From the NCBI GenBank assembly GCA_963816565.1, contig CAWFLM010000012.1, positions 1 through 15,805 of the forward strand: 15,805 nt of DNA. Reading direction: 5' to 3'. Made by a program: the position numbers and the translations under genes. The notes beneath the pieces were generated by a model. The model had not been told where the DNA came from. It made no database searches and was given only the letters and a program-made list of their open reading frames with translations. This document shows, in pieces, positions 2,956 to 15,805 of this stretch. The DNA comes from an uncultured Alphaproteobacteria bacterium (GTDB lineage: Bacteria > Pseudomonadota > Alphaproteobacteria > Rhizobiales > Xanthobacteraceae). Every line of letters starts with the position of its first letter. Within the stretch, counting starts at the first letter, position 1.

Positions 2956-3014
2956 TCATGCAATTCGCAAAATCGCCCGCACGGCGGGCGGCGCGCGCAC
3001 GATGATGTAGGCGC

Positions 3015-4239
3015 TTGCCGATGTTGACACAACCGCAGACCCGGCAGCTCTGGGACGATCCCGCGCCGACGGCGCTGCTCGTGCTGGCCGACGGCACCGT
3101 GCTCGAAGGCTTGGGCTTCGGCGCGACCGGCCATGCCGTCGGCGAAGTCTGCTTCAATACCGCGATGACCGGTTACGAGGAAATCCTCACCGATCCGTCC
3201 TATGCCGGCCAGATCATCACCTTCACCTTTCCGCATATCGGCAATGTCGGCACCAACGAGGAGGACATCGAGACCGTCAACCTCGCGGCGACGCCAGGCG
3301 CGCGCGGCGTCATTCTGCACTCGCCGATCACCGCGCCGTCGAATTATCGCGCCACGCGCCATCTCGATGCCTGGCTCAAGAGCCGCGGCGTCATCGGGCT
3401 TTCGCGGCATCGACACCCGCGCGCTCACCGCGCTTCATCCGCAAGAACGGCATGCCGAACGCGGTGATCGTCCACGAGCCGTCCGGCCGCTTCGATCTCG
3501 ATGAGCTCAAGCGCGAAGCGAGGCAATGGCCGGGACTGGTCGGCATGGACCTCGTGCCGATGGTGACTTCCGGCCAGCGCTTCACCTGGCAGGAGACGCC
3601 GTGGGTCTGGGGCGAAGGCTACGGCGAAATGCGCGACGCCGGAATTTCACGTCGTCGCCATCGATTACGGCATCAAGCGCAACATTCTGCGCCAGCTCGC
3701 CGGCAGTCGTTGCAGGGTGACGGTGGTGCCGGCGCAGACGTCGGCCGCCGACATTCTGGCGCTCAAGCCGGACGGCATTTTTCTCTCCAACGGCCCCGGC
3801 GATCCGGCCGCGACCGGCGAATATGCCGTGCCGGTGATCCGCACCCTGATCGAGCAAAAGCCGGTGTTCGGCATCTGCCTCGGCCACCAGATGCTGGGCC
3901 TCGCGCTCGGCGGCCAAGACCATGAAGATGCATCAGGGCCATCACGGCGCGAACCATCCGGTGAAGGATCTCGCGACCGGCAAGGTCGAGATCACCTCGA
4001 TGAATCACGGCTTCGCGGTCGACCGCGCCAGCCTGCCGCCGAACGTCGTGGAAACCCACGTCTCGCTGTTCGACGGCTCCAATTGCGGGCTCGCGCTCAA
4101 GGACCGGCCGGTATTCTCGGTTCAGTACCATCCCGAGGCGTCGCCCGGCCCGCGCGACAGCCACGGGCTGTTCAAGCGGTTTGTCGACCTGATGCGGGAG
4201 TTCAAACGGAGCTTGAGCGCGGGCAAAATCCGGGCCTGA
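3015..4239 (+). CDS. carA: Carbamoyl-phosphate synthase small (glutamine amidotransferase) subunit CarA. It needs about 3 frame shifts.
   Basis: ORF 3015-3467 reads [40 protein letters not shown]...[33 protein letters not shown], the CPSase small-chain N-domain. The pieces at 3452-3925 and 3717-4529 carry the GATase domain ([43 protein letters not shown]). ORF 3922-4239 reads [14 protein letters not shown]...MNHGFAV...[26 protein letters not shown]. Confidence 0.92.
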
Positions 4240-5535: not shown

Positions 5536-6776
5536 TCAGGCGACCGCTGCGAGCGCGCGCATGCGCGCCTGATCCACCAAGGCTCCGTTGCTTGATGACA
5601 TGCGCCGGCGGTTCGTGAAAGCGCAGCGCCTCGATGACGTCGGGTTGGTTCAGCACGACAAGGTCGGCCACCGCTCCCTCGGTCAACCGGAAGCCCGGAA
5701 GGTTGATGGCGGTGGCCGCGTCGACCGTGATCATGTCGTAGAGCTTTTCGACATCCTGCCGCGTCATCATCCATAACAGGTGCGAGGCGAGGAACGCGAC
5801 TTCCAGCATGTTGTTGCGGCCGAACGCGTAGTAGGCGTCGGAAATATCGTCCTGGCCGAGGCAGACGACGACGCCCTCGGCCAGCAATTCCTTGACGCGC
5901 GCGTGCAACGGACCGGTGTGCGGATCGGTCACGACAGCGATCCGCGCCGCACGCAAAAGCCGCGCGAGCCGCTGCACATAGGGCATCGGATAAAGGCTCA
6001 TCGCCCGGCAATGGTGCGCGAGCGCGCGGCCGTGCCAGCCGCGCTCGATGGTCTCGACCGCCATCATTTCCAGCGTGCGCAAACCGGGATCGCCGGCATC
6101 GTCAAGAAGCATGGAAACGTCCTTGTCGAATTTTTGCGCAAGATCGAAACAGGCTTTCACGTGCTTCGCGGCATCGGCCGTCGGTAAACTCGATCCACGG
6201 AATGCCGCCGACCACATCGGCGCCGAGCGCCATCGCCTCGCTGCATCAGTTCGAGCGCGCCCGGCTCGCGGACGATGCCGTCCTGGGCGAAGGCGACGAT
6301 TTGCAGATCGACAATGCCGCGGAATTCGTCGCGAACGCGAATGAGCGCCTTCACGCCTTCAAGACGCGCCTTGCCGTCAACGTCGGCAAAAGCACGAATG
6401 TGCAAGTTGCCGTGAAGCGCCGCCAGCGCCACGGCGCGGCGCGCATTTTCGACGATCCAGGATTTCCGCGTATTTTTCTTTGATCTTGCTGGCGAGTTCG
6501 ATGCCGGCCATCGCTTTGCCCATCGCCTCGCCCTGATAGGACTTGAGCGCTTCCTCCTCCATCATCGGCAAGCGTCCACACCTTGCACAGATGCAGGTGC
6601 GGATTGACGAAGGATTCGGTCACCAGATTGCCGCCGGCGTCGATCTCCGTCGTTCCGCGGCGATCGAGATTTTCACCGATAGCAACGATGCGGCCGTTCT
6701 TGATGCCGATCTCGGCAAGCCGATCGCGGCCGCGGAGCCGGGCACGGCGGATGGCGATGTCGAACGGCTGATCCAT
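5536..6776 (-). CDS. Amidohydrolase-superfamily protein, cytosine-deaminase/AtzC-like. It is split over 3 ORFs.
   Basis: The N-terminal ORF 6351-6776 (-) reads MDQPFDIAIRRARL...GGNLVTESFVNPHLHLCKVWTL, an HxH metal-binding motif. The middle ORF is 6157-6432 (-). The C-terminal ORF 5456-6217 (-) reads ...IAVVTDPHTGPLHARVKELLAEGVVVCLGQDDISDAYYAFGRNNMLEVAFLASHL.... A likely true C-terminus ...VIKQ-GALVDQARMRALAAVA* in the alternate frame ends near 5536. Confidence 0.8.
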
Positions 6777-7042
6777 TGCTCGATTTTAGTTCAAGGCGCT
6801 GCGAAAGCTTCTTGCTGCTAAAAGCCGACATATACCCCGGTCGTGGTGTATTTCCACCAAAGCGAAACTCTATTCTCGATCTCTTAGTTGCTCCGACCGC
6901 ACTATTTCCCCTGAGACAGGGAGCTTGCATGGTATTGCGCATTCTCACGGTCTGTCGCATCGTGATTTTAAGGATTTAGCGACCAGCTTTCCGCGTGCTC
7001 GGCGGCGATTCAACGATGGGTCCGATCAATTGACCGTATCCG

Positions 7043-8106
7043 ATGCAAAAAATGGGCTGCCCCCGTCCCACAAGCGGTGGTTCAACCCCTGACCCGCGCC
7101 GCGATCTTTCTGATCGTGACCATAAATCCTGGCGTCGAAAATCGTGCGGCCGTCCGGTCATTCTGCGGAGACCTGCCGGCGCTCCTTCGCGCCGTGGGTT
7201 TCCGCGACATCGAAGGCGAGCTTGTCCTGCGTCCTCGGATTTGGATCGGATGCGTGGGACAGGCTTTTCGGCACGCCGCGGCCGGCCGAGCTGCATCCGT
7301 TCCGCGAAATCAAGGCCGGTCCCCGCCATGCCGTCGCCACGCCCGGCGACATGCTGTTTCACATCCGCGCCAAGCGCATGGATCTCTGCTTCGAGCTGGC
7401 CACCCAGATCATGGCGCGGCTCAAAGATGCGGTTTCGCCCGTCGACGAGGTACACGGCTTTAGATATTTCGATGACCGTGATCTGGTCGGATTTGTCGAC
7501 GGAACGGAAAATCCGACGGATCAAGCGGCACTCGACGCCGCACTCGTCGAGCCTGGAGGACGCCGCGTTTGCCGGCGGCAGCTACGTGATCGTGCAAAAA
7601 TACTTGCATGATCTGGCCGGCTGGAACGCGCTATCCACCGAAGCTCAGGAACGCATCATCGGCCGCACCAAGCTTTCAGACATCGAGCTTGATGACGCTG
7701 TCAAACCAACATGCGCTCACAATGCGCTCACCACGATCGTGGAGGACGGCAAGGAAGTAAAGATCGTTCGCGACAACATGCCGTTCGGCTCGGTGGCGAA
7801 GGCGGAGTTCGGGACCTATTTCATCGGTTACGCTCGTTCGCCCCGAACGATCGAGCAAATGCTGGTGAATATGTTCGTCGGCCGGCCTCCTGGCAATTAT
7901 GACCGGTTGCTGGATTTCAGCCGCGCTGTAAGCGGCAGTCTTGTTCTTCGCGCCGTCGGCGACGTTCCTGGAGAATGTCGCGGACGACGAGCCCGTGGCG
8001 CCTTTGCCGCCGCGCTGCGGTTGCGGCGCCGGCGCAACCGGCGGCATCTGCGCGCGATGGATCGCTCGGTATTGGTTCCCTCAAAGGAGATCCTCCTCAT
8101 GAATAA
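7043..8106 (+). CDS. Dyp-type peroxidase, encapsulin cargo, with a C-terminal targeting peptide. It needs about 4 frame shifts and the 5' start is uncertain (7043-7077).
   Basis: Frame 0 reads ...AVVQPLTRAAIFLIVTINPG...LRAVGFRDIEGELV. Frame 1 (ORF 7144-7611) reads ...LHPFREIKAGPRHAVATPGDMLFHIRAKRMDLCFELATQIMARL...VDEVHGFRYFDDRDLVGFVDGTENPTD, the DyP GXXDG motif. Frame 2 reads ...GGSYVIVQKYLHDLAGWNALSTEAQERIIGRTK...GTYFIGYARSPRTIEQMLVNMFVGRPPGNYDRLLDFSRAVSGSL. Frame 0 then reads SLFFAPSATFLENVADDEPVAP. Frame 1 ends ...PAQPAASARDGSLGIGSLKGDPPHE* with TAA at 8104-8106. SLGIGSLKG is the canonical encapsulin cargo-loading peptide. Confidence 0.88.
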
Positions 8107-8938
8107 TCTTTACCGCGAGCTTGCTCCGATCTCAGACGCGGCGTGGTCTCAGATCGAGGAGGAGACCTCCCGCACGTTCAAGCGCTACCTCGCCGGACGG
8201 CGCGTCGTTGACATGCAGGGTCCGGGCGGTGTCGCGCTTCCGGCCATCGGCACCGGCCATTTGCGCGATATTAAAGCGTCCGGCGACGGCATCATCTCGC
8301 GCCAGCGCGAGGTGAAAGCGCTGGTCGAACTGCGCGTACCCTTCGAGCTTAGTCGCCAGCAGATCGACGATGTCGAGCGCGGCGCTAACGACTCAGACTG
8401 GCAGCCCGCGAAGGACGCCGCGCAGAGGATAGCCTTTGCGGAAGATCGCGCCATATTCGAAGGCTATGTCGCCGGCGGAATCGGCGGCATCCGGGAAGGG
8501 ACCAGCAATCCAGTGACGGCGCTTCCAGCCGACGTGCGCGCCTACCCGGACGCCATCGCCAAAGCGGTAAGCCAGTTGCGTCTGGTCGGCGTCAACGGTC
8601 CATATTCCGTGCTGCTCAGCGCCGATGCCTACACCAGCCTCAGCGAGACCAGCGATCACGGTTATCCGGTACTTGACCACGTCAAACGTCTGGTGGATGG
8701 CGAAATTATATGGGCGCCGGCAATCGCGGGCGCATTCGTGCTGACAACCCGCGGCGGCGATTTCGGCCTGTACATCGGCCAGGACGTATCGATCGGCTAT
8801 CTGAGCCACACCGAAGCAGTCGTCCGCCTTTACCTACAGGAGACATTCACTTTTCTCTTGCTCACGACGGAAGCTGCTGTCGCGTTAGCTCCCCCTGCGG
8901 ACGCGCGGTCGAATCCCGCTCAGCGAAAGCAGCGCTGA
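8099..8938 (+). CDS. Family 1 encapsulin nanocompartment shell protein (HK97 fold). It is the only long gene here that reads through without frame breaks.
   Basis: It reads MNNLYRELAPISDAAWSQIEEETSRTFKRYLAGRRVVDMQGP...DDVERGANDSDWQPAKDAAQRIAFAEDRAIFEGY...VGVNGPYSVLLSADAYTSLSETSDHGYPVLDHVKRL...EIIWAPAIAGAFVLTTRGGDFGLYIGQDVSIGYLSHTEAVVRLYLQETFTF. This matches characterised DyP-associated encapsulins end to end. Its ATG at 8099 overlaps the DyP stop (cATGAATAA). The last about 14 aa (PADARSNPAQRKQR) may be a read-through of a frame error. Confidence 0.92.
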   Translation: MNNLYRELAPISDAAWSQIEEETSRTFKRYLAGRRVVDMQGPGGVALPAIGTGHLRDIKASGDGIISRQREVKALVELRVPFELSRQQIDDVERGANDSDWQPAKDAAQRIAFAEDRAIFEGYVAGGIGGIREGTSNPVTALPADVRAYPDAIAKAVSQLRLVGVNGPYSVLLSADAYTSLSETSDHGYPVLDHVKRLVDGEIIWAPAIAGAFVLTTRGGDFGLYIGQDVSIGYLSHTEAVVRLYLQETFTFLLLTTEAAVALAPPADARSNPAQRKQR

Positions 8939-9061
8939 TCCATCGAGATCAGCGCATTCGCTTCCGAACGAAAGCTGCAGTCGTCGTGATGGAGAAGAGC
9001 CAACAAAGAGTAACTTGTCGACAAAAGATTTATAAGCTCCGCCCCAAAAAGACGTCCAAAA

Positions 9062-9112
9062 AGACTTGCCCAAAAAGAAGAGGTCGCCTGCGATATTTTT
9101 CGCAAGCGACCT
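9062..9112 (-). terminator. Rho-independent terminator for paralog A on the minus strand.
   Basis: Plus-strand AGGTCGCCTGCG (9081-9092), loop ATATTTTT, then CGCAAGCGACCT (9101-9112). This is a 12-bp stem with 1 mismatch. On the minus strand it is followed by CTTCTTTTTGGGCAAGTCTTTTTGGACGTCTTTTTGGGG, which gives three T5 runs. It lies 37 nt after the gene A stop. Confidence 0.6.
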
Positions 9113-9148
9113 TCATTGTCATCCGACGCAGGCGACATGTCGGCGTCT

Positions 9149-9941
9149 TTAGTTCTTCGCCTGCCCGTTGGCCTTCAGAAAGTCCTGATAGGTGAGGCCC
9201 GCGTAGTTCGGCGTGGTCGGCGCTTGCGTTGCGTCGGCAGCCGGCGCCACAGGCGCTGCGTCGATGGATTTGCTGCCGGCCGGCGACACCGGGGTCGTGT
9301 CGGACAGGCCCCACCGACCGGCGCGCTGGCCGCTTCTTTGGTGAAGACTCGGCAAACACCACTAGGCCATCCTGCGTGTAAGCCTTGGTCAGGCAGGTGC
9401 ACGGACCGGGCGAAGCCACAGACACCGGGGCCGCATCCGCGAGTTCACCAGCAACCGTATCGATAGATACAGCGACCATCACGGAGAATCCAGTGCCCGT
9501 GACCATTGAATGCCCAGCCGGGTTGACCCGGGAAACCTGGACGGCCGGGATAGCCTGGACGGCCCGGATTGAGGATCGGAAGGCCAACCGTGCGACCGCC
9601 GCCACCGTTGTAGCCGCCTGTGCCAGTGCCGACGCGGCCACCGTTACCGGTACCAGTACCGACCTGGCCACCATTGTTGCCGGCGGTGCCGAGACCGCTG
9701 CCGGCGCGCTGCTGTTGCCGAAGTTGTTAGCGGAAACGGTGCTGTACTGTACCGGAAACTGAGCTGGCGCCGAAGGCGCGTACCGCTGGCGGTCTTGTCC
9801 GCGAGACACTGTGGTTGACGCCGCTGCCGCGACTGGCATTACCGCCGCCGCTGGAACCACGGGCATAAGATTCGCTAGATGAAACGAGGCAACGGTGATC
9901 GTGGCCGCGGCTGCAAGGCTGAGGATGAGGGTGCGTGACAT
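9149..9941 (-). CDS. Paralog A of a secreted Gly/His-rich, Cys-containing protein of unknown function. It carries a signal peptide and several 1-nt indels.
   Basis: The ATG at 9939-9941 sits behind GGAGAAC-N6. The N-terminus MSRTLILSLAAAATITVASF is a Sec signal peptide. Alternate frames give a Gly-rich region (GSGLGTAGNNGGQVGTGTGNGGRVGTGTGGYNGGGG), a collagen-like PGRPGYPGRPGFPGQPG stretch, then GWAFNGHGHWILRDGR, then ...ELADAAPVSVASPGPCTCLTKAYTQDGLVVFAES-TKEAASAPVGGA..., and the C-terminus ...DAAPVAPAADATQAPTTPNYAGLTYQDFLKANGQAKN* (ORF 9149-9355). The 303-aa ORF 9030-9941 is an artefactual read-through. Confidence 0.6.
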
Positions 9942-9974
9942 CGTTGTTCTCCAGGGTCCGAGTAAGGGAAAGGG

Positions 9975-10014
9975 TTGCGATACCCGTTAGTCGGAGTTGT
10001 CGGAGAAAGGTTCA
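9975..10014 (-). promoter_or_regulatory. Putative ECF-sigma-dependent promoter of paralog A.
   Basis: On the minus strand it reads TGAACC (plus 10009-10014), then TTTCTCCGACAACTC (15 nt), then CGACTAA (plus 9987-9993), then the conserved AACGGGTATCGCAA. The -10 element ends 45 nt before the ATG. The same architecture is found upstream of paralog B and of the ECF sigma gene. Confidence 0.4.
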
Positions 10015-10134
10015 GGGCCGGTGAAGATCGCGATCGGCCTCGAGCGCGCCGCCGCAAGCGGGCCGGCAGGCGCCCTTAACTGGCGGGCCCTCATCAATGC
10101 CGGATAGGATCGATTGGCGGATTGCAATGAAAGT

Positions 10135-11013
10135 CTATTGGACCAGTTCGAGCACAAAATCCATCGGCTCGGCAATCGAATAACCCGAGTTAAGAAGCAT
10201 CGTAAAATCCGCCGCTTTTTCGGTCAGTGGAATAAACTCAGTCATGATGCCGACAAGATGAAAGTATATTTCAGAACCCTCCGGATCGATTTCAAATACC
10301 GGCCCTCCGCTGTTTCCCCTGTACACCGGGCCATCAATAATCAAAGAACGTCTTTGCGGATCTTTTCCGGCGATAAAAGCCTTTCGCAGCAGCGGCCGCA
10401 GCGGATCGAATTGTTGGTGTCAGGAAGACCCAGCGACGCCGGGTAGCCATACAAAATAGCATCGTTTCCGACCAGAACTTGATCGAACTTTCGGACCGCA
10501 ATCATTCCCGCACTAACCAGGCCGCTGTCCGCAAATTCGACTTTTGCGACCCCCGGCGAAAAGAATGTCATCAGCGAGTGATCCTGGGCTTCCTTCAGAA
10601 TCCCGAGCTTGATGGCTGCAACATCTCTCGTTTTGTGCGGCTTCACATCGCCCCGATCCAGCAGCATTTTGAAATCGACCCTCAGCAAAATCCGCTGCGG
10701 CGTCGGCTGATCCATCGAGTATGACACCAGTTCAAGAACCAGATCCGGCACTTCGGCTTTGTGGGTTTTTTCGTTGGGCAGGCCTGACGCTATGACGTGT
10801 TTTGCGGTCACCAAATATTCTGCATTGGCGGTACCAAAATAAAAACCCGAGCCAAAGCCCAACGTCGTTCCACTACTGTTTTTCATGATAACCAAGACGG
10901 GATAGGCCAAATTGTCGTCGGGAATCATCCGCCTCGCCTGCGCCAAATTGATCGACACGAACGGCCAAAGCGACGACCAGGAACAAGCGGCTGATTTGGA
11001 GCAGGTGATTCAT
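10135..11013 (-). CDS. Secreted trypsin-like (S1 / chymotrypsin-fold) serine peptidase. It sits in a low-GC island and has 2 frame shifts.
   Basis: A signal peptide MNHLLQISRLFLVVALAVRVD starts at the ATG at 11011-11013. ORF 10341-10958 (-) carries the His motif LVTAKHVIASG and the Asp motif TRDVAAIKLGIL. ORF 10135-10344 (-) carries the Ser motif YRGNSGGPVF (GDSGGP-like) and ends ...SIAEPMDFVLELVQ*. GC is about 47-50% over 10.1-11.1 kb, against about 65% in the flanks. Confidence 0.75.
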
Positions 11014-11154
11014 CGCAACAGCCTTTCAAGATCGGACCTCGCTTTTGGCAGACGCGCCTTTAGCCGCCTCAACTGTAGAACAGCGCGCCCATTTCGTCGC
11101 CCGTCGTTCCGAGCTGGAATGCCGTCGCCAAAAAACTATTTAAGACACTCGCAC

Positions 11155-11201
11155 TAACAAAAAAGAGACAGGTCGCCTGCGATACGTTTCGCAGGCGACC
11201 T
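11155..11201 (-). terminator. Rho-independent terminator for paralog B on the minus strand.
   Basis: Plus-strand AGGTCGCCTGCG (11170-11181), loop ATACGTTT, then CGCAGGCGACCT (11190-11201). This is a perfect 12-bp stem. On the minus strand it is followed by GTCTCTTTTTTGTT. It lies 39 nt after the gene B stop. Its stem sequence is nearly identical to the terminator at 9081-9112. Confidence 0.65.
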
Positions 11202-11239
11202 TCATTCTCATTTCCGGCGTGGGCGTTTTGCCGGCGTCT

Positions 11240-11886
11240 TCAGTTCTTTTCCGCTGCCTGCGCTGCCGCCTGGCCGTTGGCCTTCAGGAAGTCCTGATAG
11301 GTGAGGCCCGCGTAGTTCGGCGTGGTCGGCGCTTGCGTTGCGTCGGCAGCCGGCGCCACGGGCGCTGTGTCGTTGGACTTGCTGTTGGCCGGCGGTACCG
11401 GGGTAGCGTCGGAAGAGGCGCCGCCGATCGCCGCGCTGGCTGCTTCTTTGGTGCACATATCGGCGAACACCACCAGACCGGCCTGCGTGTAAGTCTTGGT
11501 CAGGCAGGTGCACGGACCGGGAGCAGCCGCAGATACGGGCGCCGCATCCGCGAGGTCACCATCCACCGGGTCGATGACGATCCAGCGGCCACCACGGAAA
11601 ATCCAGTGTCCGTGACCATGGCCGGCCCAACGGCCGGGAGCCGGAGCCGATCCGGGTGACCGGGACGGTCGCCATTGCGGGCTACACGTCCGCCACCATC
11701 GCGGCCGCCGCGGCCGGCGCCGGTACGTCCGCCGACATTGACGTGACCGCCGACGCTGGCATGACCGCCGAAACTGGCATGACCGCCGCCGCCGCCGAAA
11801 CCGTGGGCGTAAGAAGCGCTGGAAGCAAGCGAGGCGACGGTGATCGTGGCCGCGGCTGCGAGGGTGAGGATCAGGGTGCGTGACAT
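11240..11886 (-). CDS. Paralog B of the secreted Gly/His-rich, Cys-containing protein, about 215 aa. It has a signal peptide and at least 1 frame shift.
   Basis: The ATG at 11884-11886 sits behind GGAGAAC. It reads MSRTLILTLAAAATITVASLASSASYA, a signal peptide with an AxA cleavage site. This is followed by HGFGGGGGHASFGGHASVGGHVNVGGRTGAGRGGRDGGGRVA, which contains GGHxx[FV] hexapeptide repeats. After a frame shift it reads ...APGRWAGHGHGHWIFRGGRWIVIDPVDGDLADAAPVSAAAPGPCTCLTKTYTQAGLVVFADMCTKEAASAAIGGASSDATPVPPANSKSNDTAPVAPAADATQAPTTPNYAGLTYQDFLKANGQAAAQAAEKN* (ORF 11240-11566). The 263-aa ORF 11500-12291 is an artefact that runs past the true start. Confidence 0.65.
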
Positions 11887-11918
11887 GGTCGTTCTCCAGG
11901 GGTTGCGAGGGTTGGGCG

Positions 11919-11959
11919 TTTCGATACCCGTTGGTCGGTGGCTCCCGGAGAAAGGTTCA
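11919..11959 (-). promoter_or_regulatory. Putative ECF-sigma-dependent promoter of paralog B.
   Basis: On the minus strand it reads TGAACC (plus 11954-11959), then TTTCTCCGGGAGCCAC (16 nt), then CGACCAA (plus 11931-11937), then AACGGGTATCGAAA. The -10 element ends 44 nt before the ATG. The 5'-UTR ...CCCTGGAGAAC(A/G)AC(G/C)ATG is conserved with paralog A. Confidence 0.4.
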
Positions 11960-12177
11960 AAGGGGACAGTGAAATTCTCGATAGGCGCGGGGCGGGACCG
12001 GCCGGGGTCGAGCGGCGAGCCGCCTACTATTAAGTTTGCTTGAGTCGGCGTTGGCGGAGCTGACGCTGAAAGCCCATAAAACAAGGCTTTTGGCCTTCGG
12101 CTTGCCCTACCGCACATGAATAAGGAAACTGCCGGTACTCGAGTAGCCGAACCGCGCAAATTTTCTTCGATTTCAAT

Positions 12178-12206
12178 TGAACCTGGGCGCCGCTCCCAAC
12201 GACCAA
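12178..12206 (+). promoter_or_regulatory. Putative autoregulatory ECF-type promoter of the sigma factor gene.
   Basis: TGAACC (12178-12183), then TGGGCGCCGCTCCCAA (16 nt), then CGACCAA (12200-12206). It lies 23 nt upstream of the ATG at 12230. It has the same -35/-10 sequences and spacing as the promoters of paralogs A and B. Confidence 0.35.
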
Positions 12207-12229: not shown

Positions 12230-12790
12230 ATGCAGACGACTTCGGACGAGGTTCTGATCGGAAGGATCGCCAATGGCGACCGGCTCGCCATGCAGGTGCT
12301 GTTCGCGCGTCACCATGTCCGGGTTTACCGATTCGTGCTGCGGCTGGTGCGCAACGAGGCAACGGCGGAGGATTTGATCAGTGAGGTGTTCCTCGACGTC
12401 TGGCGGCAGGCCGGCAGGTTCGAGGGACGGTCAGCGGTGTCGACCTGGATGTTGAGCATCGCCCGCTTCAAGGCGCTGTCGGCGCTGCGCAAGCGTACCG
12501 AGGAGGAGCTGGATGACGAGACGGCCAGCGCGATCGAGGATCATGCCGACGATCCGGAGGTCTCGCTGGCGAAGAAGGATAAAGCCGCCGTGTTGCGGCA
12601 ATGCCTGGGCAAGCTCTCGGCCGAGCACCGGGAGGTCGTCGACCTCGTATACTACCATGAGAAATCGGTGGAGGAGGTCGCGGGCATTGTCGGCATTCCG
12701 GAGGCGACCGTGAAGACGCGCATGTTCTATGCGCGGAGGAAACTGTCGGAGCTCCTCAAGGAGCAAGGAATGGATCGAGGTTGGCCATGA
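12230..12790 (+). CDS. ECF-family RNA polymerase sigma-70 factor.
   Basis: It reads MQTTSDEVLIGRIANGDRLAMQVLFARHHVRVYRFVLRLVRNEATAEDLISEVFLDVWRQAGRFEGRSAVSTWMLSIARFKALSALRKR, which is region 2. It continues ...LSAEHREVVDLVYYHEKSVEEVAGIVGIPEATVKTRMFYARRKLSELL, which is region 4. The six-frame ORF starts at 12116, but the N-terminal alignment and the promoter favour 12230. Its TGA overlaps the anti-sigma ATG (CCATGACC). Confidence 0.9.
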   Translation: MQTTSDEVLIGRIANGDRLAMQVLFARHHVRVYRFVLRLVRNEATAEDLISEVFLDVWRQAGRFEGRSAVSTWMLSIARFKALSALRKRTEEELDDETASAIEDHADDPEVSLAKKDKAAVLRQCLGKLSAEHREVVDLVYYHEKSVEEVAGIVGIPEATVKTRMFYARRKLSELLKEQGMDRGWP

Positions 12791-13467
12791 CCGCGGCGCA
12801 AGGAAAGCGAGCCGAACGAAATCGAACTCCTGCTGCCTTGGCACGCGGCGGGAACGCTCAGCCAACGCGACAAGCAGCGCGTGGAAGCCGCGCTCGCCAA
12901 CGACCCGGAGCTTGCGCGCCGCTACCAGCTGGTGCGCGAGGAGCTTGGCGAGACCATCCACCTCAACGAGACGCTGGGGGCGCCATCGGCGCGCGCCATG
13001 GAAGCGCTATTCGCCAAGATCGACGCCGAGCCGGCGCGAGCCCCGGCGGTGTCGATCAATGTCGGCGTGCGCATTCGCGAATTTTTGCCGGCCTTTCGCC
13101 GCGCACGCTTGCCTGGTCGGCAAGCGCGGCGATGCTGGCCATTCTGCTGCAGGCCGGATTGATTGCCGGCATTCTGTTCAAAGAACAAGGCGCCCAGACT
13201 GCGGCCAACTACCAAACGGCCTCGCTGTCGCGCCCGGCCAGCGGCGAAGGTTCCTATGCGCTGATCCGTTTCCAGCCGCAGGCCAATGCCGCCGAAATCA
13301 GCAAATTCCTGGAAACCAACAAACTCACTATCGCCGACGGCCCGTCGCCGGGCGGGCTATATCGGGTGCGCGTCGCGCCGAGCAAGGTTTCCGGTACGGA
13401 CCTCACCGGCATCGTGAAGAAGCTGCAGGACAATAGCGTTGTGGGCTTTATCGCCCCCACGGAGTGA
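12787..13467 (+). CDS. Cognate anti-sigma factor, a single-pass membrane protein. It needs 2 frame shifts.
   Basis: Stitched over 3 frames it reads MTAAQGKRAEPNEIELLLPWHAAGTLSQRDKQRVEAALANDPELARRYQLVREELGETIHLNETLGAPSARAMEALFAKIDAEP.... It then reads ...LSPRTLAWSASAAMLAILLQAGLIAGILF, which is a transmembrane helix. It continues ...YALIRFQPQANAAEISKFLETNKLTIADGPSPGGLYRVRVAPS...VGFIAPTE*. The N-terminal ELLLPW..G.LS motif is typical of ECF anti-sigma factors. It is translationally coupled to the sigma gene. Confidence 0.75.
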   Translation: MTAAQGKRAERNRTPAALARGGNAQPTRQAARGSRARQRPGACAPLPAGARGAWRDHPPQRDAGGAIGARHGSAIRQDRRRAGASPGGVDQCRRAHSRIFAGLSPRTLAWSASAAMLAILLQAGLIAGILFKEQGAQTAANYQTASLSRPASGEGSYALIRFQPQANAAEISKFLETNKLTIADGPSPGGLYRVRVAPSKVSGTDLTGIVKKLQDNSVVGFIAPTE

Positions 13468-13556
13468 TCGTCCTGCCACAGTTTGGCTTGAGAGTTCTGC
13501 CATTGAAGGCGTTGCCGACACTAGCGCGGTGCGCACCGCCGTATCGGGAGGTTGCC

Positions 13557-15705
13557 ATGCGAAGCAAGCGATGACGTCCCGATCGATCCTGGGGGTTATG
13601 CTCTTCGGTTTGTTTTGGCGGTAGCTGCATTGACAAATCTGGCCCCGCCGCAGCGCGCGGCTTCGGCGGCGGCGTTTTGGCGGGGGGGCGCGCGGATGTT
13701 CGCGGCATGCGCGGCGGCGGATCGCACCACGAATGACGCGGAGTAGCGGCAGGACAAGTGGCGGTACATCCACCAAACGCGACGTCGGCAATTCGAGCGG
13801 ACCAGGACAACAAACACGTCGGGGACGGCCAGCCATCACGCGAACGTCGGCCGCCAATTCCGGAACAAAAACGACAAATACTGAACCAACTACAATTCTA
13901 GCTTGAGTTCATCCGGCAAGCACCGTCAAAAACGACGCATCAGGGGAACGGCAACATTTCGACCTCGAAAACATTGACGAATCAACACCGGTTCGAAAAC
14001 AACCAACATCAGGGGAGCAGCAACACTTCCACTGCGAACACGTCGACGACTGCCGGCTCGAGAACAACGACACGCAAGGAAGCGGCAACAATTCCACCGT
14101 GAACAGGTCGGCGAGCAATACCGGCTCAAGAACCACGACCACGACCGGCAACACGTCGACATCGAACACGTCGAACGCCAATGCCGGCTCGACGACAACA
14201 AACACACAGGGGCCGGCCAACACCCACCGGAAACACTCAGCCGCCAACAACGGCTCGAGGACGGGAAGCACGCCGGGGACCGGCGGCAATTCCACATCGA
14301 ATACGCCGGGCGCCACTACCGGTTCGGACACTGGTCGGGCCGGGGACGGTCGCTAATGCCGGCTCGAATACATCTGACACGCCGCGCGGTGGCGGCCGCG
14401 TTCCCGGCTGCAGTGCCGAACATTCCGCCGGGGCCTGTTGGTCTTGGCGGTGGCGGTGGCGGCGCAGGGGGTGGCGGCGGAGGTGCCGGTGGCGGCGGCG
14501 GAGGTGGCGCGGGTGGCGGAGCCAATGTGGCCAGCAGCGGCGTCCCACCGCGAAACGAGCGGCGCTACGTACCTGACGAAGTCATCGCTGAGTTTTCGTC
14601 GACCGCGACGCCGCAATCGATCGATCAGCTCGCACGCCGGTACAATTTGACCCGGCTTGAATCGCAAAGCTTCCCATTGATCGGCACCATCATTTACCGC
14701 TGGCACATCAACGGCCGCCGCTCAGTCCGGATACAATCGGTGCGATCGAAGACCAGCGCGTCGTCGCCAGAGCACAGCCCAATTACCTTTTCACGCTGCA
14801 AGCAGACGCCACAACCCCGGCGACAAAAACCCGCGGCGACGATTCGGCCCAATACGCCCTCGGCAAGCTGCACATCGAACGCGCGCATCAAGTCGCGACC
14901 GGGAAAAACATTCCGATTGCCTTGATCGACTCCGAGATCGACGTGAAACATCCGGACCTGAATGGAGCAATCACAAAAAGCTTCGATCCGCTCGGTGGAG
15001 ATGCCAAGCCGCACCCGCACGGCACTGCCATGGCAGGCGCCATCGCCGCGCACGGGAAACTTTCCGGCATCGCTTTAGGCCCGCATCTGTTGGCGGCGCG
15101 CGCCTTCGACAACACCGCGGGCGAGACCAAGGGTACCTCTCTTGCGATCTACAAAAGCCTGCAGTGGGCCGCGGACAATGGCGCTCGCGTCATCAACATG
15201 AGCTTCGCCGGCCCCGCCGACCCCGACATGCACCGGATGCTGGCGGCCGCATACGAGAAAGGCATCGTGCTGGTAGCGGCAGCCGGAAACGCCGGACCCA
15301 ACTCCGCACCGCTTTATCCGGCGGCCGATCCCGACGTCATCGCGGTGACTGCCACCGACAGCAATGACGGTCTGTTCAAGATGGCCAACCGCGGCTCATA
15401 CATTGCCGTTGCTGCTCCGGGCGTGGAGATTCTGGCACTGGCGCCCGGTAAACCGTATCAGATCACCACGGGCACCTCGGTCGCCGCGGCGCATGTCAGC
15501 GGGATCGCGGCAATGCTGCTCAAAGAAAAACCTTCGCTCACGCCCAACAAGTCCGCTCGATCATCATGTCTACTGCCAAGCCGCTCGGATCGGCCGGCCA
15601 GCGATCGGACTTTGGCGCCGGACTGGTCGATGCCTACCAGGCGGTGACGGCGATAGGAACGGCAAGCCGGCGGTTAAACAGGACGCCGAACAGGCAAAGG
15701 AATAA
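13557..15705 (+). CDS. Secreted subtilisin-like (S8) serine peptidase. It has a long N-terminal low-complexity Ser/Thr/Asn/Gly repeat region, a poly-Gly tract and an I9-like propeptide. The N-terminal part has many frame shifts and the 5' extent is uncertain.
   Basis: The catalytic domain (ORF 14922-15647 plus neighbouring frames) reads IALIDSEIDVKHPDL (Asp), HPHGTAMAGAIAAHG (His), AAAGNAGPNS (Asn) and TTGTSVAAAHVSGIAAMLL (Ser). The propeptide reads NERRYVPDEVIAEFSSTATPQSIDQLARRYNL.... Upstream are GLGGGGGGAGGGGGGAGGGGGGGAGGG and NTGSRTTTTTGNTSTSNTSNANAGSTTTNTQGP... repeats. A candidate signal peptide MRSKR-MTSRSILGVMLFGLF-LAVAALTNLAPPQRAASA sits at 13557, 6 nt after GGGAGG. Every frame has stops between 13746 and 14100, so the link between the signal peptide and the protease rests on assuming indels. 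The gene ends ...AYQAVTAIGNGKPAVKQDAEQAKE* at 15705. Confidence 0.8.
13920..14400 (+). repeat. About 7 degenerate tandem copies of a unit of about 60-68 nt that encodes an STNG-rich peptide repeat.
   Basis: The anchor [AT][AG]CCGG[CT]TC[GA]A recurs at about 13988, 14051, 14119, 14181, 14249, 14317 and 14356. Spacings are 63, 68, 62, 68, 68 and 39 nt. Translated units look like NTGSRTTTTTGNTSTSNTSNA, NAGSTTTNTQGPANT... and NNGSRTGSTPGTGGNSTSNTPGA. Confidence 0.6.
14443..14525 (+). repeat. GGN codon tract encoding poly-Gly (G6-7 A)x4.
   Basis: The DNA reads ggcggtggcggtggcggcgcagggggtggcggcggaggtgccggtggcggcggcggaggtggcgcgggtggcgga. The antisense poly-Pro ORF 14316-14525 and the WRWRW/AVAVAA ORFs in other frames are artefacts of this tract. 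Confidence 0.7.
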
Positions 15706-15805
15706 TCGCAAAGCCGATCGGCGTGCTAGCCTTGCCGTGACACCGACGGTATCGGCCATGACCGCGCCGTGTGCGCCGAGCGGTTTTTCGTCGCCAATTG
15801 TTGAA

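What the first reader, a model, noticed from the sequence alone, without database searches (positions are those of the whole stretch)
9062..11886. Duplicated promoter-gene-terminator modules for a secreted Gly/His-rich Cys protein, with no recognisable family.
There are two minus-strand genes, 9149-9941 and 11240-11886. Both encode signal-peptide proteins of about 215 aa. Both N-termini start MSRTLIL[ST]LAAAATITVAS. Each has a Gly-rich half. Paralog B has GGHxx[FV] hexapeptide repeats and paralog A has a collagen-like PGRPGYPGRPGFPGQPG stretch. Both then carry a conserved [AF][GN]GHGHW-I[FL]R-[GD]GR motif. Both carry a Cys cluster PGPCTCLTK-x-YTQ-x-GLVVFA ... CTK, and an Ala/Pro/Thr-rich tail ending NYAGLTYQDFLKANGQA. 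Each gene has the same ECF-type promoter, the same conserved 5'-UTR, and an almost identical 12-bp-stem terminator 37-39 nt after the stop. So the whole promoter-gene-terminator unit was duplicated. I cannot place the protein in any family I know. Candidates by composition include metal-binding proteins (because of the His-Gly clusters), a cell-surface or matrix protein, or a substrate or inhibitor of the adjacent proteases. All three are speculation.
Basis: seen in the sequence. Interest (0 to 1): 0.75.

Follow-up and report, generated by a model that had tools for sequence, protein, structure and literature searches.

The report
ECF-controlled secreted tri-cysteine protein pair
Two neighbouring copies of an undescribed gene for an exported, mostly unstructured glycine/histidine-rich protein are probably switched on by the alternative sigma factor encoded next door, and this gene family is widespread in uncultured soil Xanthobacteraceae; its biochemical role is still unknown.

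Summary
Two minus-strand paralogs (B 11886-11240, A 9941-9149) share promoter, leader, signal peptide, C-terminal half and a 13-bp-stem terminator. The window is error-ridden: 2.8 frameshifts/kb in other genes, including dnaG and carA. B has 1 frameshift and is probably intact (~215 aa). A has 8, plus W->C and C->F at invariant residues. A is ~265 aa, not ~215, and may be a pseudogene here; an intact 309-aa A-type copy exists in a relative.

The family has no Pfam, NCBIfam, PDB-sequence, fold or literature match. It is large: 618 clusters at 50% identity, all 'hypothetical', and the named or traceable records are MAGs of Xanthobacteraceae or uncultured Alphaproteobacteria. Its core is an invariant CxCLTKxY..G.V.F.D.CT.E.A motif, predicted as a three-stranded sheet inside a disordered protein with a basic N-half and an acidic C-half.

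In 60 of 80 genome loci the gene lies divergent from an ECF sigma / anti-sigma / S8 protease operon. Gene and operon carry the same TGAACC-N16/17-CGACC promoter type, and the two -10 variants switch together.

It is therefore the signature regulon output of that module. Metal binding, S8 substrate and anti-sigma feedback ligand all remain untested.

The parts
11240..11886 (-). Paralog B (B-type family gene). It is about 215 aa after correcting one 1-nt deletion near 11646-11655. It has a Sec-type signal peptide, GGHxxx hexapeptide repeats, an HGHGHWIFRGGRWI hairpin, the PGPCTCLTKTYTQAGLVVFADMCTKEAASA tri-Cys motif, an Ala/Pro/Thr-rich tail and NYAGLTYQDFLKANGQ...EKN at the C-terminus.
   Evidence: Translations. 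Frameshift-aware alignment shows 1 frameshift. It is 84% identical to the intact 204-aa P0002. The 18-nt repeat is at 11729-11788.
9149..9941 (-). Paralog A (A-type, about 265 aa if corrected). It has the same signal peptide, an extra Ser/Thr/Asn/Gly-rich insert and five Gly-X-Y triplets (PGRPGYPGRPGFPGQPG). Here it carries 8 frameshifts plus W->C and C->F at invariant positions, so it is a possible pseudogene.
   Evidence: The intact 309-aa ortholog is L009:7167-8096. The 18-nt repeat is at 9528-9569.
11931..11959 (-). ECF-type promoter of B: TGAACC (-35, 11959-11954), then CGACCAA (-10, 11937-11931). The spacer from GAAC to CGAC is 17 nt.
   Evidence: Coordinates. The motif is conserved upstream of essentially every family gene.
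9987..10014 (-). ECF-type promoter of A: TGAACC (10014-10009), then CGACTAA (9993-9987). The spacer from GAAC to CGAC is 16 nt.
11887..11930 (-). Conserved 5' leader of B: CGGGTATCG directly after the -10, then a C/A-rich stretch and the CCTGGAGAACGACC ribosome-binding region. The equivalent leader of A is 9942-9986.
   Evidence: The A/B alignment and conservation across loci.
11170..11201 (-). Intrinsic terminator of B: 13-bp stem, 6-nt loop and T tail.
   Evidence: (-28.1 kcal/mol, z -7.1).
9081..9112 (-). Intrinsic terminator of A: 13-bp stem with one G-U pair, 6-nt loop and T tail.
   Evidence: (-23.9 kcal/mol, z -5.8).
12177..12206 (+). Promoter of the sigma operon: TTGAACC-N16-CGACCAA. 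It has the same architecture and the same -10 class as the A and B promoters, so autoregulation is inferred.
12230..12790 (+). ECF sigma factor, 186 aa, intact. It matches the NCBIfam PRK12515 subfamily.
   Evidence: Pfam Sigma70_r2 and r4_2. NF009168 at 332 bits against a cutoff of 236. 87% identical to L001.
12787..13467 (+). Membrane anti-sigma factor, about 223 aa, with 2 frameshifts here. It has a weak zf-HC2-like N-terminal anti-sigma domain, a hydrophobic stretch read by eye as one TM helix (no TM predictor was run) and a periplasmic domain of about 90 aa.
   Evidence: JGI labels homologs 'anti-sigma factor RsiW'.
13554..15805 (+). S8 subtilisin-like protease; it runs off the window end and is frameshifted. 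It has a signal peptide, an AAARGFGGG... Gly-rich start, a long Ser/Thr/Asn-rich linker, a fervidolysin-like N-pro domain and the S8 catalytic domain.
10138..11010 (-). Trypsin-like (S1, Trypsin_2) secreted protease gene between B and A, about 292 aa with 2 frameshifts. It has no TGAACCTTT promoter of its own.
   Evidence: The same gene lies between the sigma operon and the family gene in L013-15 and L027.

Best explanation
A and B are two paralogous single-gene transcription units. Each runs from an ECF-type promoter to a strong intrinsic terminator. Together they are the signature regulon output of the adjacent ECF sigma / membrane anti-sigma / S8 protease module.

Inferred mechanism:
1. An extracytoplasmic cue inactivates the single-pass anti-sigma factor.
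2. The freed sigma transcribes its own operon, including the S8 protease, from TTGAACC-N16-CGACCAA. It also transcribes every family gene from TGAACCTTTCTCC...CGACCAA.
3. The products are exported by Sec and cleaved after A-x-A (AYA|HG here, ADA|RG in most relatives).
4. The mature protein is largely disordered and bipolar. The N-half is basic and rich in Gly, His and Arg (pI about 12). The C-half is acidic and rich in Ala, Pro and Thr (pI about 4). A small invariant tri-Cys three-stranded beta motif and an HW.FR.GRW hairpin sit at the junction.

The extreme conservation of these short motifs inside an otherwise free-drifting sequence argues for a specific partner. The most plausible partner is a component of the same module: the co-induced S8 protease, whose mature N-terminus carries a similar GFG(R/G)(M/G)GG segment, or the anti-sigma periplasmic domain. 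A generic bulk role is less likely.

Shown: the gene structure, the family, the synteny, the promoter sharing and the -10 co-variation. Inferred: sigma dependence, export, and any biochemical activity.

In this window B is probably functional, because its single frameshift is within the sequence's error rate. A is either decaying or unusually badly assembled.
For: Family and coding reality:
- There are 472 close relatives and more than 1000 short-form relatives, all about 140-240 aa.
- An HMM search finds 618 clusters at 50% identity.
- Invariant columns are C, C, L, K, Y, F, D, C, E and A.
- Intact B-type and A-type ORFs stand in tandem in L009.

Synteny:
- 60 of 80 species-representative genome loci have the gene divergent from the sigma / anti-sigma / S8 operon. 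57 show the full operon and 3 are truncated contigs. The same arrangement is seen in L001-L006.
- In all 6 assemblies represented by more than one locus among the 80 kept, exactly one locus is sigma-linked.

Promoter:
- The composite motif TGAACC-N14-17-(CGAC..A | TG[TC]C..A) occurs 160 times in 2.1 Mb of sequence counted on both strands. 80 hits lie just upstream of family genes and 66 just upstream of sigma genes. 7 of the remaining 14 are also family genes.
- Distant orphan members keep the motif.
- The -10 class co-varies. The scripted count gave 37 loci with CGAC at both promoters; about 28 loci have TGTC (family) with TG[CT]C (sigma), after I re-read by eye 12 promoters that the script had mis-picked or mis-classed. 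I saw no discordant case among the loci I could score; L040 and L086 were not scored because their family starts were mis-set.
- The two classes track two sigma clades with fixed differences, for example at residue 63 beside the predicted -10-reading loop.

Protein properties:
- AlphaFold2 gives pLDDT 73-79 for the Cys motif and about 76 for the hairpin, and below 50 elsewhere.
- The S8 N-termini share the Gly/Phe/Arg segment.

Terminators.

Error rate: 2.8 frameshifts/kb in other CDS, against 1 in B and 8 in A.
Against: - No experiment links the sigma factor to these promoters.
- The -10 co-variation is essentially one phylogenetic split, so it counts as about one independent event.
- The reverse question was not tested: whether every genome with this sigma module carries the family gene.
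- The S8 protease and the protein could be co-regulated without interacting.
- Nothing in the sequence fixes a biochemical activity.
- No SignalP-type predictor was run; the signal peptide was judged by inspection.
- The structure model is low-confidence overall (mean pLDDT 48-56).
Confidence: 0.75

Rival explanations
1. The product is a periplasmic or extracellular metal-binding protein (Ni, Cu or Zn buffer or chaperone). It would use the His-rich segment and the CxC...C thiols, and would be induced by a metal-responsive ECF system.
For: - His clusters lie next to the motif (HGHGHW, HHHHHW). Some short-form relatives are extremely His-rich, for example P0217 and P0226.
- Three Cys are invariant, including a CxC pair.
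- From my own knowledge, metal-sensing ECF systems exist, such as CnrH-CnrYX.
Against: - Only one His is nearly invariant (>=90% of sequences). The number and position of the others drift freely.
- No metal transporter, efflux or chaperone gene is conserved in the neighbourhood.
- There is no similarity to any known metal-binding fold.
Confidence: 0.2
2. The protein is a precursor or substrate of the co-transcribed S8 protease and possibly of the neighbouring S1 protease. Cleavage would release a disulfide-containing peptide that acts as a signal or antimicrobial, or would simply turn the protein over.
For: - The S8 gene is always in the sigma operon next to the family gene.
- Both exported proteins start with a similar GFG-rich segment.
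- The substrate-like part is disordered and rich in Gly and Pro.
- In 7 loci an SdpI/YfhL-family membrane protein gene carries the same promoter directly after S8. From my own knowledge, SdpI and YfhL protect Bacillus subtilis against the processed, disulfide-bonded SdpC peptide, and YfhL is sigma-W dependent.
- Several paralogs occur per genome.
Against: - There is no sequence similarity to SdpC or to any bacteriocin family.
- No dedicated exporter or immunity gene is present in most loci.
- I saw no conserved cleavage site.
- The SdpI-like gene is restricted to one clade.
Confidence: 0.2
3. The protein is a feedback ligand of the signalling module. It would bind the periplasmic domain of the anti-sigma factor, or gate its cleavage by S8, and so tune sigma activity.
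For: - Short motifs are near-invariant while the rest of the protein drifts, which is typical of a binding epitope.
- The gene is strictly adjacent to, and shares a promoter type with, the sigma operon.
- The anti-sigma periplasmic domain has no recognisable ligand-binding family.
Against: - Orphan paralogs, and the large short-form branch, occur far from any sigma gene.
- No co-variation between the protein and the anti-sigma factor was tested.
- No complex prediction could be run.
Confidence: 0.15
4. The two reading frames in this window are dead relics (pseudogenes), and the apparent genes are of no functional consequence in this organism.
For: - A has 8 frameshifts in 790 nt, against an expectation of about 2.2 at the background rate; my Poisson estimate for 8 or more is about 0.002 and was not computed by a tool.
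- A also has W->C and C->F at residues that are invariant in 32 of 32 aligned relatives.
Against: - B has only 1 frameshift, below the window's background. dnaG and carA carry 6 and 4, so most indels are sequence errors.
- Promoters, ribosome-binding sites and terminators of both copies are intact.
- A-type orthologs are intact elsewhere.
- Low-complexity GC-rich repeats are error-prone in long-read assemblies (my own knowledge).
Confidence: 0.1

Closest known systems
ECF sigma / anti-sigma modules with a neighbouring serine-protease target, e.g. Sinorhizobium meliloti RpoE6-EcfR6 and SMa0142 (group ECF26; PMC6180224)
   Same: Both are alphaproteobacterial ECF sigma factors co-transcribed with a membrane anti-sigma factor. 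Both are autoregulated. In both, the strongest targets are adjacent genes, including a serine protease and hypothetical proteins, and the function is undefined.
   Different: - The promoter motif differs: GGAATA...CGTC/CGTT in the S. meliloti targets, against TGAACC-N16/17-CGACC here.
- The protease here is an S8 inside the operon, not a divergent serine protease.
- The tri-Cys family is not reported there.
- The ECF group of this sigma could not be assigned; only NCBIfam PRK12515 was matched.
Mycobacterium tuberculosis SigK-RskA with Mpt70/Mpt83 (from my own knowledge)
   Same: An ECF sigma / anti-sigma pair whose main regulon output is a pair of paralogous, Sec-exported proteins. Those genes lie next to the regulator, contain conserved cysteines and have long been of unclear function.
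   Different: There is no sequence or fold relationship. Mpt70 and Mpt83 are folded FAS1 domains, whereas this family is mostly disordered. There is no S8 protease in that operon, and the phylum differs.
Bacillus subtilis SdpC toxin precursor with SdpI/YfhL immunity proteins (from my own knowledge)
   Same: SdpC is a Sec-exported precursor of about 200 aa that yields a disulfide-containing product. An SdpI/YfhL-type membrane protein is under ECF (sigma-W) control. Here an SdpI-family gene shares the promoter in 7 related loci.
   Different: There is no homology between the family and SdpC. No sdpAB-like maturation genes are present. The SdpI-like gene is absent from the window and from most loci.
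Gly/His-rich proteins and peptides (plant shepherins, Helicobacter Hpn; from my own knowledge)
   Same: The composition is similar: GGH-type repeats and His clusters.
   Different: The resemblance is compositional only. Those proteins lack the tri-Cys motif and the acidic tail. Shepherins come from a plant precursor and Hpn is cytoplasmic, and neither has the ECF context. No alignment was found.

Membership tests
ECF-sigma-dependent transcription unit (regulon member of the adjacent sigma) | A -35 element of the GAAC type and a -10 element of the CGnC type, separated by 16-17 nt. | tested here: met
   B has TGAACC-N-CGACCAA with GAAC to CGAC = 17 nt. A has 16 nt. The motif is conserved upstream of 80+ family genes.
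ECF-sigma-dependent transcription unit (regulon member of the adjacent sigma) | The same motif lies upstream of the sigma factor's own operon (autoregulation) and changes together with it. | tested here: met
   The motif is upstream of the sigma gene in 66 loci. The -10 classes are concordant: 37 loci by the scripted count and about 28 more after re-reading mis-picked promoters by eye, with no discordant case among the loci I could score. This is probably one evolutionary event.
ECF-sigma-dependent transcription unit (regulon member of the adjacent sigma) | Transcription depends on the sigma factor in vivo or in vitro, and the start site is mapped. | not testable with these tools
   This needs RNA-seq, 5'-RACE or in vitro transcription.
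Sec (signal peptidase I) exported protein | An N-terminal positive n-region, a 15-20 residue hydrophobic h-region, an A-x-A cleavage site, no lipobox Cys and no twin-Arg motif. | tested here: met
   MSR + TLILTLAAAATITVASLA + SSASYA|HG. Relatives read ...SSAADA|RGFGGG. There is no Cys before residue 120. This was judged by inspection; no SignalP was run.
Collagen-like (Gly-X-Y) repeat protein (Pfam PF01391) | A long uninterrupted run of Gly-X-Y triplets that matches the Collagen profile. | tested here: not met
   A has only 5 triplets (GRP GYP GRP GFP GQP) and the L009 A-type protein has a run of about 8. Pfam finds no match for the intact L009 A-type protein at E<=1.
Any curated protein family or solved fold | A significant match to Pfam-A, NCBIfam, PDB sequences or PDB structures. 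| tested here: not met
Rho-independent terminator | A GC-rich hairpin followed directly by a T run, just downstream of the stop codon. | tested here: met
   Both genes have 13-bp stems with 8-9 GC pairs, T tails and z-scores of -7.1 and -5.8.
Metal-binding His-rich protein | Conserved metal-ligand residues in a fixed geometry, or demonstrated metal binding. | tested here: inconclusive
   Three invariant Cys and one nearly invariant His exist, but the other His residues vary in number and position. There are no binding data.

The most novel reading that the evidence does not exclude
The family protein, the S8 protease and the anti-sigma factor form a self-contained extracellular signalling loop. 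The sigma factor induces a disordered pro-protein. The co-induced S8 protease cuts it to release the invariant tri-Cys beta-peptide. That peptide then acts back on the anti-sigma factor (autoinduction) or on competitors (a Sec-dependent, protease-matured toxin, with SdpI-like immunity in some clades). This would be a previously undescribed peptide-signalling or peptide-warfare system, abundant in uncultured soil Xanthobacteraceae.
Probability: 0.1. Interest if true: 0.8.

Novelty: new variant of a known kind. Interest (0 to 1): 0.5.

Why it matters
ECF sigma / anti-sigma modules are a major signalling route in soil bacteria, yet most have no known output. This work defines a module by comparative evidence alone: sigma, anti-sigma, S8 protease and a dedicated exported tri-Cys protein. 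The evidence also gives a promoter motif, a regulon (including orphan paralogs and, in one clade, an SdpI-like gene) and a protein family of hundreds to thousands of members that no database names. The module is very common in soil metagenomes: the anti-sigma factor alone has more than 7400 clusters at 90% identity, and the family has 618 clusters at 50% identity. That makes it a well-defined target for a DUF-type family description and for a simple experiment: over-express the sigma factor and watch the family genes. It does not overturn any concept, and the biochemical role remains open.

Tried and rejected
- Pfam, NCBIfam and a PDB sequence profile on close and distant members found nothing.
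- Rfam and tRNA scans of the window found nothing.
- A plasmid tblastn search gave no match.
- Literature searches for the motif strings and for ECF + S8 contexts gave no relevant paper. The ECF re-classification paper has no supplements held, so the ECF group could not be assigned.
- Cluster look-ups gave only 'hypothetical protein' from Xanthobacteraceae MAGs.
- Contexts of distant short-form and orphan paralogs showed no conserved neighbour.
- The anti-sigma search returned only close relatives in the top 120, so it did not reach cultured taxa.
- Collagen-like protein was rejected: too few triplets and no Pfam match.
- Lipoprotein was rejected: no lipobox.
- Programmed frameshifting was rejected as the explanation of the broken frames, because frameshifts are scattered through every gene, including dnaG and carA.
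- My first variable-gap pattern for the promoter was mis-specified and found nothing. It was replaced by direct alignment and by the regex scan.


Full report
**What is in the sequence**

On the minus strand, an ATG at 11886 (gene B) and an ATG at 9941 (gene A) both open with MSRTLIL[TS]LAAAATITVAS. A MAFFT alignment of the two regions is 75% identical over 887 aligned columns. It shows five shared blocks:
- an upstream block, TGAACCTTTCTCCG...CCGAC.AACGGGTATCG;
- the ribosome-binding region, CCTGGAGAAC.AC.ATG;
- the signal-peptide codons;
- the whole C-terminal half, about 95% identical over the last 90 nt of the tail;
- a hairpin after the stop codon.

Tandem Repeats Finder confirms 18-nt (hexapeptide) arrays: 11729-11788 in B (GGHxxx) and 9528-9569 in A (PGRPGY/F). 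The terminator scan and RNA folding give 13-bp stems with T tails at 11201-11170 and 9112-9081. Their energies are -28.1 and -23.9 kcal/mol, and none of 200 shuffles fold as well. Exact GAACCTTT occurs only twice in the 15.8-kb window, once before each gene.

**State of the two reading frames**

Neither gene is an intact ORF here. A frameshift-aware protein-to-DNA alignment against intact orthologs finds one frameshift in B (near 11650) and eight in A.

This has to be read against the rest of the window. The same method finds 27 frameshifts in 9.69 kb of other coding sequence, or 2.8 per kb. These include six in the essential gene dnaG, four in the housekeeping gene carA, five each in an amidohydrolase and a DyP peroxidase, two in the anti-sigma gene and three in the S8 protease. 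The sequence itself is therefore error-prone, as a long-read metagenome assembly would be.

B, at 1.6 frameshifts per kb, is most simply an intact gene of about 215 aa. A, at 10 per kb, is about 3.6 times above background; my Poisson estimate for eight or more at the background rate is about 0.002. A also has TGG->TGT (Trp->Cys) in the FRxGRW motif and TGC->TTC (Cys->Phe) at the third cysteine. Both residues are invariant in the 32-sequence family alignment. A is either a decaying copy or a particularly badly assembled low-complexity stretch, and I cannot decide between these.

Corrected, A is about 265 aa, not about 215. It belongs to a longer A-type with a Ser/Thr/Asn/Gly-rich insert.

**The family**

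A word-seeded phmmer search with corrected B returned 472 proteins. All are 'hypothetical', none has a Pfam domain, and most are 190-240 aa. The best, P0002, is 84% identical over 204 aa. A full HMM search of 1.84 billion representatives found 618 clusters at 50% identity with E<=1e-3 and 244 with E<=1e-10. Many of these are a shorter form of 140-190 aa that ends soon after the cysteine motif. A profile of those short forms retrieved more than 1000 further clusters.

Across 106 long and short members the invariant columns spell C-x-C-L-x-K-x-Y...F-x-D-x-C-x-x-E-x-A. Within the long form the consensus is PGPCTCLTKTYTxDGLVVFADVCTKEAASA. It is preceded by W.HHHGHW.FR.GRWI and followed by APT..NYAG.TY.DFLAAN...KN at the C-terminus.

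The corrected mature B is bipolar:
- Residues 28-105 have pI about 12 and are 35% Gly, 10% His and 13% Arg.
- Residues 106-214 have pI about 4.2, are rich in Ala, Pro and Thr, and hold the three Cys.

No known family or fold matches:
- Pfam, NCBIfam and a PDB sequence profile give no significant hit.
- AlphaFold2 with 31 and then 106 sequences predicts a mostly disordered chain (mean pLDDT 48 and 56). It contains a hairpin at HWIFRGGRWI (pLDDT about 76), a three-stranded sheet over the Cys motif (73-79) and a short C-terminal helix.
- Foldseek against the PDB gives only non-significant matches to small WW domains (best E 0.64).
- No paper in the held library contains the motif strings.

'No recognisable family' is therefore confirmed, and the frames are clearly conserved.

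**Where it occurs**

In the species-representative genome collection, 147 stretches encode relatives. The 80 loci kept are all MAGs labelled Xanthobacteraceae, Hyphomicrobiales or uncultured Alpha-/proteobacteria, except one bin labelled Planctomycetaceae (L065). Named cluster members are 'MAG: hypothetical protein [Xanthobacteraceae bacterium]'. No plasmid match was found.

**Genomic context**

In L001-L006 the closest ortholog lies divergent from an operon of three genes: an ECF sigma (186 aa), a protein with no Pfam hit (223 aa) and an S8 peptidase (662-674 aa). This operon sits between BrkB/carB/greA and variable DNA. The window has the same operon:
- Sigma at 12230-12790. It matches NCBIfam PRK12515 at 332 bits against a cutoff of 236.
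- Anti-sigma at 12787-13467. It has a weak zf-HC2-like N-terminus, and JGI labels homologs 'RsiW'.
- S8 from about 13554 to beyond the window end.

Among the 80 genome loci, 60 have the family gene next to this sigma gene. 57 show the complete operon and the other three are truncated contigs. 20 are orphan copies. In each of the six assemblies represented by more than one locus among the 80 kept, exactly one locus is sigma-linked.

The window's arrangement is sigma | B | S1 protease | A. Related arrangements are:
- L009 has the window arrangement, with intact B-type (231 aa) and A-type (309 aa) genes but most of the S1 gene deleted.
- L013-15 and L027 have sigma | S1 protease | one family gene.

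The duplication is therefore old. Both positions are used in relatives. The near-identical 3' ends of A and B suggest gene conversion, which is an inference.

**Promoter evidence**

Alignment of upstream regions shows TGAACCTTTCTCC, a spacer, then either CGACCAA or CTGTCCCA, followed by CGGGTAT. This holds for essentially every family gene, linked or orphan, and for distant short-form orphans. The sigma operons carry TTGAACCTGCGCGCC, a spacer, then CGAC(C/T)(A/T)A or CTGCCT.A.

A regex for the composite motif hits 160 times in 2.1 Mb of locus sequence counted on both strands:
- 80 hits lie directly upstream of family genes.
- 66 lie upstream of sigma genes.
- Of the other 14, seven are family genes whose starts I had mis-set or distant members.
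- The last seven precede an SdpI/YfhL-family membrane protein gene just downstream of S8 in one clade.

The -10 variants are concordant. The scripted count gave 37 loci with CGAC at both promoters. About 28 loci have TGTC before the family gene and TG[CT]C before the sigma gene; this second figure comes from re-reading by eye 12 promoters where the script had picked a GGAACC in the leader or mis-classed the -10. I saw no discordant case among the loci I could score; L040 and L086 were not scored because their family starts were mis-set.

The two classes coincide with two sigma clades that have fixed substitutions, for example residue 63 next to the predicted -10-reading loop. This is probably a single evolutionary switch. 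It supports, but does not prove, that the sigma factor reads both promoters.

**Most likely mechanism**

The shown facts are the gene structure, the conserved family, the synteny and the shared, co-varying promoter. From established knowledge of ECF systems I infer the following:
1. The single-pass anti-sigma factor holds the sigma factor until an extracytoplasmic cue arrives.
2. The freed sigma factor transcribes its own operon, including S8, and all family genes as short monocistronic mRNAs ended by strong terminators.
3. The products are exported by Sec and cleaved after A-x-A.

The very high conservation of two short motifs inside an otherwise drifting, disordered chain points to a specific partner. 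The S8 proteases of these operons begin, after their own signal peptide, with AA(F/R/M)GGFGRMGGFG. This resembles the ARGFGGGG start of the family proteins, which hints that the two exported proteins act together.

I cannot discriminate among three roles with these tools: substrate or precursor of S8, feedback ligand of the anti-sigma factor, or His/Cys metal binder. I put about 0.75 on the regulatory-architectural statement and no more than 0.2 on any one biochemical role.

**Comparison with known systems**

The closest described arrangement is ECF modules whose main targets are adjacent genes including a serine protease, such as S. meliloti RpoE6/SMa0142 in group ECF26 (PMC6180224). The promoter motif, the protease type and the target family all differ from that case. 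By logic, though not by homology, the module resembles M. tuberculosis SigK-RskA driving the paralogous secreted Mpt70/Mpt83, and sigma-W control of the SdpI paralog YfhL. Both comparisons rest on my own knowledge. The collagen-like reading fails: A has only five Gly-X-Y triplets and there is no Pfam match.

**Verdict**

This is a real, conserved, undescribed protein family tied to a specific ECF sigma / anti-sigma / S8 module. The window holds two paralogs, one probably intact and one damaged. It is a solid candidate for a new family description and for an easy regulatory experiment, but it is not conceptually surprising. Interest is about 0.5.

Noticed in passing
whole window (e.g. dnaG 371-2387, carA 3006-4212, amidohydrolase 5542-6779): The window carries about 2.8 frameshifts per kb in coding sequence, including 6 in dnaG and 4 in carA. 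It is an error-prone (probably long-read) assembly, so ORF-based gene calls here are unreliable.
   Followed up: yes
window 7040-8938 (+): A DyP-type peroxidase (5 frameshifts) is followed directly by an intact family-1 encapsulin shell gene (Linocin_M18, E 9e-95). This is a classic DyP-encapsulin nanocompartment pair. It is also present in L001 and L010 but is not part of the conserved sigma neighbourhood.
   Followed up: partly
window 10138-11010 (-): A secreted trypsin-like (Trypsin_2) protease gene lies between B and A. It has a GNSGGP active-site motif and no TGAACCTTT promoter. The same gene sits between the sigma operon and the family gene in L013-15 and L027, and is mostly deleted in L009.
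   Followed up: partly
window about 13554-13700 (+); S8 N-termini in 36 loci: After their signal peptide, the S8 proteases start with AA(F/R/M)GGFGRMGGFG. This Gly/Phe/Arg segment resembles the ARGFGGGG start of the family proteins. It may be a shared sorting or interaction element and is unexplained.
   Followed up: partly
L081:1712-2479 (-), and equivalents in L031, L034, L035, L036, L041, L048: An SdpI/YfhL-family membrane protein gene (Pfam SdpI 5e-15, DUF1648) lies directly downstream of S8. It is preceded by the same TGAACC...TGTC promoter, so it is a further regulon member in one clade.
   Followed up: partly
window 11922-11930 and 9978-9986 (-); all family loci: The block CGGGTAT(C/T)G(G/C)AA immediately after the -10 is conserved in both -10 clades upstream of family genes but not upstream of the sigma operon. 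It may be the start-site region or a leader element specific to family mRNAs.
   Followed up: no
window 9043-9078: A 12-nt tandem repeat of 2.8 copies (reported consensus unit CCCAAAAAGACTG; GTCTTTTTGG-like on the minus strand) lies just downstream of A's terminator. It is absent after B.
   Followed up: no
sigma proteins of 64 loci (window 12230-12790): There are two sigma clades with fixed differences at residues 22, 29, 50, 63, 87, 138, 143, 144, 177 and 182. They coincide with the CGAC and TG[TC]C -10 classes of both promoters.
   Followed up: partly
window 13900-14360 (+) and gene A 9700-9800: The Ser/Thr/Asn/Gly-rich insert of A-type proteins shows a low-complexity match to the S8 linker region (tblastn E 8e-7, 28% identity).
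   Followed up: no
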